Assembly (NCBI RefSeq): GCF_055900595.2
Contig: NZ_CM148325.1
Length of the DNA stretch: 64,000 nt
Strand: one strand, 5' to 3'
The translations under genes were made by a program, and so were the position numbers. Below, in pieces: positions 23,231 to 24,054 of this stretch. The stretch's first letter is position 1; the number at the start of each line of letters is the position of its first letter. Under the pieces are notes generated by a model that worked only from the letters and a program-made list of their open reading frames with translations, did not search any database and was not told where the DNA came from.

Positions 23231-24054
23231 AATCAGCATTCACGTATCAGGAAGAGTTAAGGGTACAAGGGGTACTCGATGGCGGTCTATATTTCACGAC
23301 TAACGCCATTTCAAGGAAGAAGTGTGGTGGGTGGTTTCGAATGAGGGCTGGTGTTTTGGTACGTGGCACGCCACTGCAATGTATTTATCCATCAGTACTC
23401 ATTCAAAAGTACCTGGAAAAAATGCCCGCTATGCCAAGCGGGCAAATTGCTTACATGTGGAATTAAGTAATTAACGATAAAGCCAGAGTATTATCATTTA
23501 TTATACCCATTCATTTAATCAGGTTAATTACTCAAATCACTGAACTATTCTCTGTTCGCTCACTTATGCTGAGTGAGTACCACGACCAATGTATGTAGAA
23601 CAATGCCGTAGAGTAAGGATGAAATGTCTCTGCCACGCCTTAAACATCTACTACTGACTAGAACCGCCGTCGCATGCAGAAGAGTCTTGTGAGCGTTACA
23701 GGAGTCTGGCTTTGCTCATTAATCAACGCTATTTAGATATAAATTTCTAATACTCGAAAAACGATTTTCACAAATAAATTATAACGGGTGGTTTTTATCA
23801 TACAGCGAAATAACCTTTTGTTTATTAAATTTAACATTCCTGTGCTAAATTAATTAAAAGTACCATGTGTAGCATATGAAGCTGTTAATGCCAGCAATTG
23901 TCTCAAATGAGCGATTTTTTATAGTGACAAACAATAATAACATTAAAAATAGTCATGTAGACATTAACTGAGGAAAAGACAATGTTAGTTAGTAATTAAC
24001 ACTAGCACATTTATAAATAGTGGAAATTGTAATGAAAGAAAATCTTCTAAATCC

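What the first reader, a model, noticed from the sequence alone, without database searches (positions are those of the whole stretch)
23231..24054. AT-rich 0.8 kb ORF-free region downstream of ileY with an orphan minus-strand terminator
No ORF of 60 aa or more on either strand. A clean hairpin (TGCCCGC-TATGCCAA-GCGGGCA, 23422..23444) is followed by T6 only when read on the minus strand, implying a leftward transcript terminating here, yet no minus-strand gene is annotated upstream of it. A second palindrome, CTCACT-TATGCTG-AGTGAG, lies at 23557..23577. This could be a small RNA or small-protein gene, or the relic of a lost gene.
Basis: seen in the sequence. Interest (0 to 1): 0.3.

Follow-up and report, generated by a model that had tools for sequence, protein, structure and literature searches.

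The report
Candidate small RNA beside ileY
The "orphan" terminator next to the E. coli tRNA gene ileY is real and ends a 69-base stretch kept almost unchanged between E. coli and its sister species E. albertii, so it is most likely an unannotated small RNA gene; no experiment has yet shown the RNA.

Summary
The window is an E. coli chromosome: ygaQ, ileY, spacer, ypjCB, pinH remnant, ypjA, ssrA. Nothing as good appeared in 1,500 shuffles. The second palindrome is at chance level. The spacer is a mosaic. E. albertii shares it only up to about 23552. Beyond that, E. coli has AT-rich, H-NS/Hha-bound ypjCB upstream DNA, and E. albertii has ykgL-ykgO-ykgM-ykgR. The conserved island (permutation P = 3e-4) runs from the +1 predicted by a shared -10-like GATAAT to the end of the U-run. 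That fits a 69-nt minus-strand RNA (23484 to 23416). There is no Rfam, annotation or literature record. Caveats: K-12 and two-thirds of carrier genomes have a C.A mismatch in the stem. K-12 Term-seq shows no 3' end there, only an orphan Rho-dependent stop 70 nt downstream. 43% of E. coli genomes lack the locus. No small protein or gene relic was found. It is a plausible new sRNA candidate of modest interest.

The parts
23155..23230 (+). ileY, tRNA-Ile2 (anticodon CAU). Its 3' 47 nt serve as an integrase attachment core in other strains.
   Evidence: ARAGORN, Rfam tRNA at 67 bits and RefSeq annotation. In strain LHM10-1, homology to the window starts at the anticodon loop, next to an integrase-bearing island.
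23231..23317 (.). Variable tRNA trailer. It is scrambled by indels between E. coli and E. albertii. In one E. coli strain homology stops 46 bp after ileY.
   Evidence: 38% identity with three indels. Strain 20AR0354 has a P2-like remnant from 46 bp after ileY. K-12 has a Rho-dependent termination region for ileY read-through at about 23258.
23329..23414 (.). Long imperfect inverted repeat of about 86 nt, directly next to the A6/T6 tract. It is a near-perfect palindrome in E. albertii. In E. coli it is decayed by transitions that read as G.U on the plus strand.
   Evidence: Window plus strand -36.6 kcal/mol (z -4.2); minus strand -23.8 (z -2.6). E. albertii -48.3 and -49.3 (z -4.0 and -5.2). 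98% of cells pair against 35-42% when partners are slid, and there is no two-sided covariation. 81% identical between species. Single copy per genome.
23416..23484 (-). Candidate small RNA of about 69 nt: GGCUUUAUCGUUAAUUACUUAAUUCCACAUGUAAGCAAUU, then the terminator hairpin, then U6. In K-12 (NC_000913.3) this is about 2,785,508-2,785,576 on the plus strand.
   Evidence: 68/69 identical to E. albertii; the 71-nt island 23415-23485 is 97.2% identical. Permutation P = 3e-4 for such an island within the shared block. The body is identical in 3,078 of 3,085 E. coli carriers. There is no Rfam family, no annotation and no literature hit by sequence.
23423..23444 (-). Rho-independent terminator hairpin (UGCCCGCU-UGGCAU-AGCGGGCA), followed by U6 at 23422..23417.
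   Evidence: 0 of 1,500 shuffles. The stem is perfect in E. albertii, with one change in the loop. A C-to-T change at 23427 in K-12, O157 and about two-thirds of carriers makes a C.A mismatch on the minus-strand RNA.
23490..23495 (-). -10-like hexamer GATAAT, conserved in all E. coli examined and in E. albertii. It predicts +1 at G23483/G23484.
   Evidence: Sequence reading. In E. albertii the scan reports ATTACA-18-GATAAT, 9 of 12 matches. It overlaps the hexamer TTATCA that Shimada et al. 2014 chose for the sigma-70 holoenzyme binding peak in this spacer.
23500..23527 (-). E. coli-specific stronger promoter-like site TTAACC-16-TATAAT (10 of 12). The -10 is CATGAT in about a quarter of carriers and TACAAA in E. 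albertii.
   Evidence: The number of promoter-like sites in the region equals the shuffle expectation (9 against 9.4), so this match alone carries no weight.
23460..23538 (.). 16-nt inverted repeat with arms GAATTAAGTAATTAAC (23460-23475) and GTTAATTACTCAAATC (23523-23538). It brackets the promoter patch, and its left arm lies inside the RNA body.
   Evidence: 88% complementary, 47 nt apart. Both arms are recognisable in E. albertii. Function not tested.
23545..23556 (.). Evolutionary breakpoint where homology with E. albertii ends. To the right E. coli has the ypjCB upstream region and E. albertii has ykgL-ykgO-ykgM-ykgR.
23559..23577 (.). Second palindrome CTCACT-N7-AGTGAG. It is at chance level and has no terminator features.
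   Evidence: The loop and one stem base vary between strains.
23556..23981 (+). AT-rich (35% GC) upstream region and probable 5' UTR of ypjCB. It occurs as diverged alleles and is H-NS/Hha-bound in K-12.
   Evidence: Shimada 2014 lists an H-NS site and a promoter in the ypjC-ileY spacer. Garcia-Contreras 2008 reports Hha binding and ypjC induction.
23982..25425 (+). ypjCB (DUF5507/DUF5508). The ancestral ATG is at 23982. An 11-bp deletion after 23995 shifts the frame, and the longest intact ORF restarts at 24055.
   Evidence: Alignment. Intact homologs are 484-492 aa against 456 aa here. The phrog_30093 hit to the displaced N-terminus is. PGAP uses an ATT start at 23995 in the near-identical strain.

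Best explanation
The hairpin is a genuine Rho-independent terminator inherited from the common ancestor of E. coli and E. albertii. It forms the 3' end of a short, separate transcription unit on the minus strand, about 69 nt long (23484 to 23416). I read this unit as an unannotated small RNA gene. It lies convergent with ileY and divergent from whatever gene sits to its right: ypjCB in E. coli, ykgL in E. albertii.

Proposed working. Step 1, inferred: a weak sigma-70 promoter, with a conserved -10 GATAAT plus an extra E. coli-specific TATAAT in this strain, starts transcription at G23484/G23483. Step 2, shown from sequence: the RNA has an AU-rich 40-nt body, an 8-bp GC-rich stem-loop preceded by AAUU, and a U6 tail. 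That is the layout of Hfq-type base-pairing sRNAs. Step 3, shown from sequence: in this strain the stem is the intact ancestral form, so termination should be efficient and leftward transcription should stop before it runs antisense into ileY. Step 4, partly shown: in K-12-type strains a C.A mismatch weakens the stem. Leftward transcripts there read on and are stopped by Rho about 70-100 nt further on, in the stretch that is C-rich on that strand (the long inverted repeat).

The RNA's target and its physiological role are unknown.
For: (1) Terminator quality is far beyond chance: 0 of 1,500 shuffles, with an 8-bp stem, 6 G-C pairs and U6.

(2) There is a conservation island. Positions 23415-23485 are 97.2% identical to E. 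albertii, against 94.7% for the tRNA itself, 81% for the left flank, 64% for the right flank, 38% for the trailer, and 67% nt / 60% aa for the neighbouring ygaQ. A permutation test that allows for window sliding gives P = 3e-4.

(3) The edges of the island coincide with RNA landmarks. The left edge is the end of the U-run. The right edge is the +1 predicted from a -10-like GATAAT kept in both species.

(4) The gene to the right differs between the species, yet the unit is kept, so it is not an appendage of that gene. ykgM-ykgO has its own proximal stem-loop, with a mapped 3' end in K-12.

(5) K-12 DirectRNA-seq with and without bicyclomycin shows an 'orphan' Rho termination region on this strand at 2,785,647, equivalent to window 23345. 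Reads upstream/downstream were 55/19 untreated and 114/154 treated, Rho score 3.9, p = 1.6e-6. So something is transcribed leftward here although no gene is annotated.

(6) A sigma-70 holoenzyme binding peak maps to this spacer in vitro, and the hexamers chosen for it overlap the proposed -10.

(7) No coding signal was found on either strand.
Against: No experiment shows a discrete RNA. K-12 Term-seq in three conditions has no 3' end at the hairpin, and the two TSS catalogues I could search list no start there; the searchable copies may be incomplete.

The terminator stem carries a destabilising C.A mismatch in K-12, O157 and about two-thirds of carriers: 2,081 of 3,087. About 43% of complete E. 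coli genomes lack the locus entirely. Any function is therefore dispensable.

The promoter is weak and is inferred only from hexamers. Promoter-like matches in this AT-rich DNA are no more frequent than in shuffles.

Only two species carry the unit, so there is no covariation test. Within-species variation has no power: a control 41-mer is equally invariant.

No convincing target was found among nearby genes. The 16-nt inverted repeat could point to a DNA-binding protein as a partial reason for the conservation.
Confidence: 0.45

Rival explanations
1. The site is a terminator or insulator only, or a decaying relic. The hairpin stops low-level pervasive leftward transcripts that arise in the AT-rich, H-NS-bound DNA to its right, or read-through from ykgO in E. 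albertii. That keeps them from colliding with ileY. No discrete RNA has a function of its own, and in E. coli the site is slowly decaying.
For: The site is orphan in E. coli. In E. albertii it lies between the convergent units ykgR-M-O and ileY, and it is the only canonical terminator-like site downstream of ykgO. The derived stem mismatch occurs in two-thirds of carriers, and 43% of genomes have lost the locus. K-12 shows only low read counts and Rho-dependent termination, with no defined 3' end. H-NS/Hha binding suggests silenced DNA prone to spurious promoters.
Against: A terminator needs about 30 nt, yet the 40 nt upstream of the stem are 40/40 identical between species while DNA further upstream is only 64% identical (P = 3e-4). 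The edge of conservation falls at a predicted +1. ykgMO has its own proximal terminator structure, so little read-through needs stopping.
Confidence: 0.3
2. It is a plus-strand element: a structured 3' trailer of the ileY transcript. The long hairpin 23329-23414 plus the GC hairpin would act in tRNA precursor processing or stability, or in Rho-dependent termination.
For: In E. coli the long repeat folds much better on the plus strand (-36.6 against -23.8 kcal/mol). It has seven G.U pairs against one C.A. All of about 12 transitions among five sequences keep plus-strand pairs, including the hairpin SNP (G-U on plus, C.A on minus). The ileY trailer has a Rho-dependent region in K-12.
Against: In E. 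albertii the repeat is a near-perfect DNA palindrome that folds equally well on both strands. The E. coli asymmetry can therefore be decay by strand-biased C-to-T and A-to-G changes. There is no two-sided covariation. The plus-strand hairpin lacks a U-tract. Plus-strand reads downstream of ileY are few without bicyclomycin (30 against 154 upstream). This reading also does not explain why the most conserved piece is the 40 nt beyond the GC hairpin.
Confidence: 0.08
3. It is a DNA-level element. The conserved 40 nt, with the 16-nt inverted repeat and/or the long palindrome, would be binding sites for a regulator, a nucleoid protein or a recombinase at the edge of the ileY integration hotspot.
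For: The 16-nt arms at 23460-23475 and 23523-23538 bracket the promoter patch and are recognisable in both species. The locus is H-NS/Hha-bound. ileY is an integration site and the DNA to the right has been exchanged.
Against: The right arm is much less conserved than the left: 3 of 16 changes against 0 of 16. Conservation extends seamlessly through the hairpin and the U-run, which fits an RNA unit better. The integrase core is inside the tRNA, 190 bp away. No repeat family or multi-copy element is involved.
Confidence: 0.07
4. A small protein is encoded in the interval. Candidates are the 109-aa plus-strand ORF that PGAP sometimes calls, or one of the 22-40-aa minus-strand ORFs.
For: PGAP annotates WP_032314419.1 over this block in some genomes. 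One plus-strand frame is open in both species.
Against: The only start codons for the plus-strand ORF lie upstream of or within the tRNA gene. The 15 interspecies differences fall 7/6/2 on codon positions 1/2/3, giving at least 10 amino-acid changes in about 45 codons. Upstream indels total 37 nt, so the frame is broken. The minus-strand ORFs at 23532-23647 are disrupted by 1- and 4-nt indels between strains. There are no Pfam or PHROG hits.
Confidence: 0.02

Closest known systems
Hfq-type trans-acting enterobacterial sRNAs with an intrinsic terminator (class typified by RyhB, MicA, OmrA/B; from general knowledge)
   Same: Size of about 70 nt, in an intergenic position. An AU-rich, largely unstructured body is followed by an A/U stretch, a GC-rich stem-loop and a U6 tail. 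Conservation is confined to the stretch from +1 to the terminator, with a sharp drop in the promoter-distal flank.
   Different: No expression, Hfq binding or target has been shown. The promoter is weak. The terminator is polymorphic and the gene is absent from 43% of E. coli genomes. The unit is restricted to E. coli and E. albertii. It matches no Rfam family.
3'-UTR-derived sRNAs that share the terminator of an upstream operon (class typified by CpxQ, SroC, MicL; from general knowledge)
   Same: In E. albertii the unit lies 364 nt downstream of, and co-oriented with, the zinc-regulated paralog operon ykgR-ykgM-ykgO. The last 70 nt are far better conserved than the stretch between them.
   Different: ykgM-ykgO has its own strong stem-loop 60-95 nt after ykgO in both species, and a K-12 Term-seq 3' end (on the ykgL-sense strand) maps to it. 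In E. coli there is no co-oriented upstream gene at all. A small convergent ORF (ykgL) lies in between in E. albertii.
Orphan or insulating intrinsic terminators and Rho/H-NS-suppressed pervasive transcripts in horizontally acquired DNA (described for E. coli; cited in Adams et al. 2021, PMC7815308)
   Same: AT-rich DNA that is H-NS/Hha-bound, low-level unannotated transcription on the non-coding strand, and Rho-dependent termination.
   Different: The hairpin and the 40 nt upstream are the most conserved DNA at the locus and belong to the ancestral ileY-side block, not to the AT-rich inserted DNA.
RtT RNA (Rfam RF00391) and tRNA 3' external transcribed spacer RNAs such as 3'ETS-leuZ (from general knowledge): RNAs derived from tRNA transcripts
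   Same: Position just downstream of a tRNA gene. A structured region on the tRNA strand, the long hairpin, is present.
   Different: The Rfam scan found no RtT or any other match. The best-conserved unit reads on the opposite strand from the tRNA. Plus-strand transcription beyond ileY is Rho-limited.

Membership tests
Rho-independent (intrinsic) terminator | GC-rich stem of 5-12 bp with a short loop | tested here: met
   8 perfect pairs, 6 of them G-C, with a 6-nt loop; about -15 kcal/mol.
Rho-independent (intrinsic) terminator | U-tract immediately 3' of the stem on the transcribed strand | tested here: met
   U6 directly after the stem on the minus strand. The plus strand has AAAUUGCUU.
Rho-independent (intrinsic) terminator | More than chance for the local composition | tested here: met
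   0 of 1,500 dinucleotide shuffles.
Rho-independent (intrinsic) terminator | An RNA 3' end mapped at the U-tract in vivo | tested here: not met
   K-12 Term-seq in LB at OD 0.4 and 2.0 and in M63 has no 3' end at 2,7855xx (+). K-12 carries the C.A stem mismatch (MFE -11.7 against -17.7 kcal/mol), so this is not a fair test of the intact allele. No data exist for an intact-stem strain.
Independent trans-acting sRNA gene | Own promoter and a defined transcription start | tested here: inconclusive
   A conserved -10-like GATAAT has a weak -35, and this strain has an extra TTAACC-16-TATAAT. A sigma-70 holoenzyme binding peak lies in the spacer. No TSS appears in the catalogues I could search. Promoter-like hits are not enriched over shuffles.
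Independent trans-acting sRNA gene | Sequence conservation confined to the transcribed unit | tested here: met
   68/69 identical, against 81% and 64% in the flanks; P = 3e-4. Only two species are available.
Independent trans-acting sRNA gene | Hfq (or ProQ) association and a base-pairing target | not testable with these tools
   No literature record. The local duplex scan was uninformative: 9% of shuffled bodies did as well.
Independent trans-acting sRNA gene | Conserved secondary structure supported by covariation | tested here: inconclusive
   The stem never varies between species, and the only within-species change breaks a pair on the minus strand. There is no informative variation.
Any described RNA family (Rfam 15) | Covariance-model match at or near the gathering score | tested here: not met
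   Only the tRNA passes. The other hits have E of 3 or more and simply recognise a generic terminator. Nothing at this site in the E. albertii locus.
3'-UTR-derived sRNA of ykgR-ykgM-ykgO | Shares the terminator of the upstream operon, with no other terminator in between | tested here: not met
   Both species have a 15-17-bp stem-loop 60-95 nt after ykgO (z -4.5 and -5.0), and a K-12 3' end on the ykgL-sense strand maps to it. In E. coli the operon is at another locus.
Type I toxin-antitoxin locus | Small hydrophobic toxin ORF overlapped by, or adjacent to, the antisense RNA | tested here: not met
   No conserved small ORF and no hydrophobic candidate. No Rfam hit to toxin or antitoxin RNA families above noise.
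Dispersed repeat element (REP/BIME, ERIC/IRU, MITE) | Multiple copies per genome | tested here: not met
   One place per genome in about 3,090 genomes, in both near and distant modes.
Remnant of a protein-coding gene or of a phage or plasmid | Detectable similarity to protein families or to mobile-element DNA | tested here: not met
   Six-frame scans against Pfam and PHROGs hit only the YpjCB N-terminus. No phage hits. The three 'plasmid' hits are chromosome-sized records.

The most novel reading that the evidence does not exclude
The unit is a previously unnoticed sRNA gene restricted to E. coli and E. albertii, and its terminator is naturally polymorphic: intact in about one-third of carriers and leaky in K-12 and O157. 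Strains would then differ in whether they make a discrete, Hfq-competent RNA or a Rho-terminated read-through transcript. Because the RNA is antisense to the ileY 3' trailer and convergent with ileY, it could also modulate the supply of the rare AUA-decoding tRNA that AT-rich acquired genes depend on.
Probability: 0.12. Interest if true: 0.6.

Novelty: new member of a known kind. Interest (0 to 1): 0.38.

Why it matters
If it is real, this adds an unannotated small RNA to a heavily studied chromosome region of E. coli. It would also explain why the RNA was missed: the laboratory strain K-12 carries a crippled terminator allele, so its transcriptomes show only an 'orphan' Rho-dependent stop. 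It would give a natural allelic series for studying how terminator strength decides between a discrete sRNA and a read-through transcript. It would also mark the fixed edge of a recombination hotspot bounded by ileY and ssrA. If it is not real, the site is still a clear example of an ancestral terminator kept beside a tRNA gene while the neighbouring genes were exchanged. Either way the finding is modest. It is a candidate that needs one Northern blot, not a new kind of system.

Tried and rejected
(1) Known RNA families: the Rfam E-value scan of the locus and the gathering-score scan of the E. albertii locus found nothing but the tRNA.

(2) Literature: searches by gene names, with sRNA, Hfq or H-NS, and by sequence strings found no RNA reported here. 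A 2026 sRNA-candidate preprint does not mention the locus.

(3) Coordinate searches of supplementary tables. Cappable-seq, ROSE, TERMITe and Kim 2012 TSS gave no entries. Rend-seq boundaries and Conway 2014 have no files held. Thomason 2015 is not held. Only Adams 2021 gave data.

(4) Relic of a gene or mobile element: rejected.

(5) Small protein: rejected.

(6) 'The hairpin is the stranded terminator of ykgM-ykgO': attractive, but weakened. The operon has its own proximal stem-loop in both species.

(7) Plus-strand structured RNA: the G.U asymmetry looked promising. It is explained at least as well by decay of a DNA palindrome that is still perfect in E. albertii.

(8) More species for covariation. 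The hairpin pattern occurs only in E. albertii among the species-level genome set, with 7 chance hits in unrelated MAGs. YgaQ and YpjCB homologs are confined to E. coli/Shigella and E. albertii. No albertii-like records exist among the 'E. coli' genomes.

(9) Within-species constraint: no power, because the control segment is equally invariant.

(10) Local target scan: uninformative.

(11) One fold call used wrong K-12 coordinates (second item). It was redone.
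Full report
WHERE WE ARE. The window is an Escherichia coli chromosome. ARAGORN finds a tRNA with anticodon CAU at 23155-23230 (+) and a tmRNA at 31196-31557 (-). RefSeq annotation of a 99.9%-identical strain and of K-12 gives the gene order:
- glaH
- ygaQ (an alpha-amylase-like gene, 20343-22595, minus strand)
- ileY
- the spacer
- ypjCB
- a pinH remnant
- ypjA
Nothing is annotated between ileY and ypjC in K-12 MG1655. Window position x corresponds to NC_000913.3 position 2,808,992 - x, and the window's minus strand is the K-12 plus strand.

CHECK OF THE OBSERVATION. The interval is AT-rich: 36.4% GC against 49.4% for the window. The hairpin is real, but it spans 23423-23444. 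It has an 8-bp perfect stem with 6 G-C pairs, a 6-nt loop, and a folding energy of about -15 kcal/mol. An A6 run at 23417-23422 puts a U6 tail after the stem on the minus strand only.

In 1,500 dinucleotide-preserving shuffles of the 824 bp, no site of equal quality appeared on either strand. By strict criteria the whole 64-kb window holds only about a dozen comparable sites.

The second palindrome lies at 23559-23577. It is at chance level: 77% of shuffles contain a 6-bp palindrome with a short loop, and it has no T-run.

The statement that the interval has no ORF of 60 aa or more needs two qualifications:
- A mechanical 109-aa plus-strand ORF (23137-23466) reads through the tRNA gene and into the interval. 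PGAP sometimes calls its equivalent a hypothetical protein.
- The true start of ypjCB is the ATG at 23982. This strain has an 11-bp deletion after 23995.

THE SPACER IS A MOSAIC. Seven E. coli lineages align with few changes over 23231-23555 but with diverged alleles and indels further right. About 57% of 5,426 complete E. coli genomes carry the block.

The 3' flank of ileY is a recombination hotspot:
- In one strain, homology stops 46 bp after the tRNA and a P2-like remnant follows.
- In another, an integrase-bearing island of about 24 kb abuts the locus. Homology to the window begins at the anticodon loop of ileY, which is the usual attachment core for tRNA-targeting integrases.

A pattern scan of 100,044 species-level genomes found the hairpin outside E. 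coli only in Escherichia albertii. I then recovered two metagenome contigs that are 99% identical to the E. albertii type strain, and four complete E. albertii chromosomes.

Homology with the window runs from glaH through ygaQ and ileY and stops at about 23552. To the right, E. albertii has ykgL, ykgO, ykgM and ykgR. I confirmed ykgM and ykgO as type B ribosomal proteins L31 and L36. E. coli keeps that cluster at another locus, beside ecpR. The AT-rich right part of the interval (23556-23981) is therefore the upstream region of ypjCB. It belongs to a segment that differs between the two species. In K-12 this region is bound by H-NS and Hha.

THE CONSERVATION ISLAND. Identity between the window and E. 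albertii varies sharply along the shared DNA:
- ileY, 23155-23230: 94.7%
- tRNA trailer, 23231-23317: 38%, with indels
- Region 23318-23414: 81%
- 23415-23485: 97.2% (69 of 71)
- 23486-23552: 64%
- Beyond 23552: no homology
For comparison, the neighbouring ygaQ is only 67% identical in DNA and 60% in protein.

I placed the 42 observed differences at random among the 235 shared columns. A window of at least 72 columns with at most two differences arose in 0.03% of permutations.

The island contains the U-run, the hairpin (one change, in the loop) and the next 40 nt, which are 40/40 identical. Read on the minus strand, it begins at G23484. That is the +1 position expected from the hexamer GATAAT at 23495..23490, which is kept in all E. 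coli examined and in E. albertii. This strain also has a stronger-looking site, TTAACC-16-TATAAT, at 23527..23500. That -10 is CATGAT in about a quarter of carriers and TACAAA in E. albertii.

The inferred RNA is GGCUUUAUCGUUAAUUACUUAAUUCCACAUGUAAGCAAUU-UGCCCGCUUGGCAUAGCGGGCA-UUUUUU, about 69 nt long. It has the general layout of enterobacterial base-pairing sRNAs. It matches no Rfam family, no annotation and no paper I could find, including by sequence string.

EXPERIMENTAL DATA AVAILABLE. Adams et al. 2021 (PMC7815308) mapped 3' ends and Rho-dependent termination in K-12.
- No Term-seq 3' end lies at the hairpin in any of three conditions.
- Their bicyclomycin experiment lists an 'orphan' Rho termination region at 2,785,647 on the K-12 plus strand. 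That is window 23345 on the minus strand, 70 nt beyond the U-run. Reads upstream/downstream were 55/19 without the drug and 114/154 with it, Rho score 3.9, p = 1.6e-6.
- A second region, at window about 23258 on the plus strand, shows that ileY read-through is also Rho-limited (Rho score 3.6).

So leftward transcription does occur here in K-12 at a low level, and it passes the hairpin. K-12 is a poor witness for the intact terminator, however. It carries T instead of C at 23427, which makes a C.A mismatch in the minus-strand stem and raises the MFE of the unit from -17.7 to -11.7 kcal/mol. E. albertii has the perfect stem, so the mismatch is the derived state. It is present in about two-thirds of E. 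coli carriers: 2,081 of 3,087. The window's strain has the ancestral, intact stem.

Shimada et al. 2014 found a sigma-70 holoenzyme binding peak in this spacer. The hexamers they chose for it overlap the proposed -10. Their assay does not give direction.

WHAT I REJECTED.
- Small protein. Minus-strand mini-ORFs are broken by indels between strains. The plus-strand frame that stays open in both species has substitutions 7/6/2 at codon positions 1/2/3.
- Gene or mobile-element relic. Six-frame translations hit nothing but the displaced YpjCB N-terminus, and phage and plasmid collections have no homolog.
- Stranded ykgM-ykgO terminator. In E. albertii the hairpin is the only canonical terminator-like site downstream of ykgO, 364 nt away. 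But both species have a strong 15-17-bp stem-loop 60-95 nt after ykgO, and a K-12 3' end (on the ykgL-sense strand) maps to it. The operon probably ends there.
- Dispersed repeat. The block is single-copy.

AN EXTRA FEATURE.
- In E. albertii it is a near-perfect palindrome that folds equally well on both strands.
- In E. coli it has accumulated transitions that all read as G.U on the plus strand: plus -36.6 kcal/mol (z -4.2), minus -23.8 (z -2.6).
This could mean selection on a plus-strand RNA, the ileY trailer. With no two-sided covariation and a perfect DNA palindrome in the sister species, strand-biased decay explains it equally well. The K-12 Rho termination site on the minus strand falls inside this repeat. 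Its function is open.

BEST EXPLANATION AND RIVALS. I judge it most likely (0.45) that the hairpin ends a discrete, conserved small-RNA unit on the minus strand. The unit is convergent with ileY and independent of whatever gene lies to its right.
- Shown: the terminator, the conservation island, its coincidence with RNA landmarks, and leftward transcription in K-12.
- Inferred: the promoter, the existence of the discrete RNA, and any function.

The main rival (0.30) is a terminator or insulator with no RNA function of its own, slowly decaying in E. coli. It explains the polymorphism and the frequent loss of the locus, but not the 40 perfectly conserved nucleotides upstream of the stem. Three minor rivals remain:
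- a plus-strand tRNA-trailer structure (0.08)
- a DNA-binding site, suggested by a 16-nt inverted repeat at 23460-23475 and 23523-23538 (0.07)
- a small protein (0.02)

COMPARISON WITH WHAT IS KNOWN, AND NOVELTY. The unit works like a classical terminator-ended enterobacterial sRNA. It cannot be filed in any described family. The membership features that need experiments (a TSS, a 3' end in vivo, chaperone binding, a target) are untested, or unmet in K-12. It is best rated as a possible new member of a known kind.

Three things limit the interest: the narrow distribution (E. coli and E. albertii only), its dispensability (absent from 43% of genomes), and the lack of expression data. A local search for base-pairing partners gave nothing above shuffled controls. 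One Northern blot in an intact-stem strain would settle the main question.

Noticed in passing
window 23329-23414: An imperfect inverted repeat of about 86 nt lies immediately left of the terminator's T-run. It is a near-perfect palindrome in E. albertii. In E. coli it is decayed by transitions that all read as G.U on the plus strand. The K-12 Rho-dependent stop on the minus strand maps inside it. Its function is unknown.
   Followed up: partly
window 23182 and 23196 (ileY positions 28 and 42): The anticodon-stem pair 28:42 of ileY varies among E. coli lineages as G-C, G-U or A-U. The window's allele combines A28 with C42, an A.C mismatch that cmscan flags as non-canonical. It looks like a recombinant of two alleles and might weaken this tRNA.
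   Followed up: no
window 23982-24057: ypjCB has an 11-bp deletion after 23995 relative to all other lineages aligned, so the ancestral ATG at 23982 runs into a stop after 5 codons. The longest ORF restarts at 24055 (456 aa against 484-492 aa for intact homologs). PGAP rescues the near-identical strain with an ATT start at 23995.
   Followed up: yes
window 20343-22595: ygaQ (alpha-amylase-like, 750 aa) is intact here, whereas K-12 and several other strains carry it as a pseudogene with an internal stop or frameshift. The family is found only in E. coli and E. albertii, at just 60% amino-acid identity between them.
   Followed up: partly
window 23231-31195: The whole 8-kb segment (spacer, ypjCB, pinH remnant, ypjA-like autotransporter of 1,600 aa) lies between the 3' ends of two integration-target genes that face each other, ileY (+) and ssrA (-). 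Only about 160 bp separate the ypjA stop from ssrA, so no prophage sits at ssrA in this strain. From general knowledge, K-12 has CP4-57 there. In E. albertii the equivalent position holds ykgL-O-M-R plus variable P4-like or integrase elements.
   Followed up: partly
window 23460-23475 and 23523-23538: A 16-nt inverted repeat (GAATTAAGTAATTAAC / GTTAATTACTCAAATC, 88% complementary, 47 nt apart) brackets the promoter-like patch and is recognisable in E. albertii. It could be a regulator site, or a long-range RNA stem in longer leftward transcripts.
   Followed up: no
L021 3975-3999 / L024 10460-10492; E. coli L022 about 2535-2575: A strong 15-17-bp AU-rich stem-loop lies between the convergent ykgL and ykgO. 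It is conserved between E. coli and E. albertii, and a K-12 Term-seq 3' end at 312,325 (+) maps to it. It probably acts as a bidirectional terminator for the Zur-regulated ykgM-ykgO operon and for ykgL.
   Followed up: partly
L019 (E. coli LHM10-1, NZ_CP037903.1 1,128,000-1,160,500): A composite island of about 24 kb replaces the 5' part of ileY and the ygaQ N-terminus. It carries two tyrosine recombinases, a pgaABCD copy, a GGDEF protein, an RtT sRNA, IS1/IS3/IS903 copies and a TOTE conflict-system remnant. Only the 3' 47 nt of ileY remain at its right end.
   Followed up: no
window 23429 (K-12 2,785,563): A gallium-resistance evolution study reports a low-frequency (0.19) G-to-A mutation in one K-12 population at 2,785,563. 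That position falls in the terminator stem. It is probably a hitch-hiker.
   Followed up: no
window 31048-31067 (minus strand): A terminator-like hairpin with a T-run lies about 130 nt beyond the 3' end of ssrA and 13 nt from the ypjA stop, on the ssrA strand.
   Followed up: no
L024 4025-4310: The P4-like element upstream of ykgR in E. albertii carries Rfam matches to C4 antisense RNA, its a1/b1 targets and isrK.
   Followed up: no
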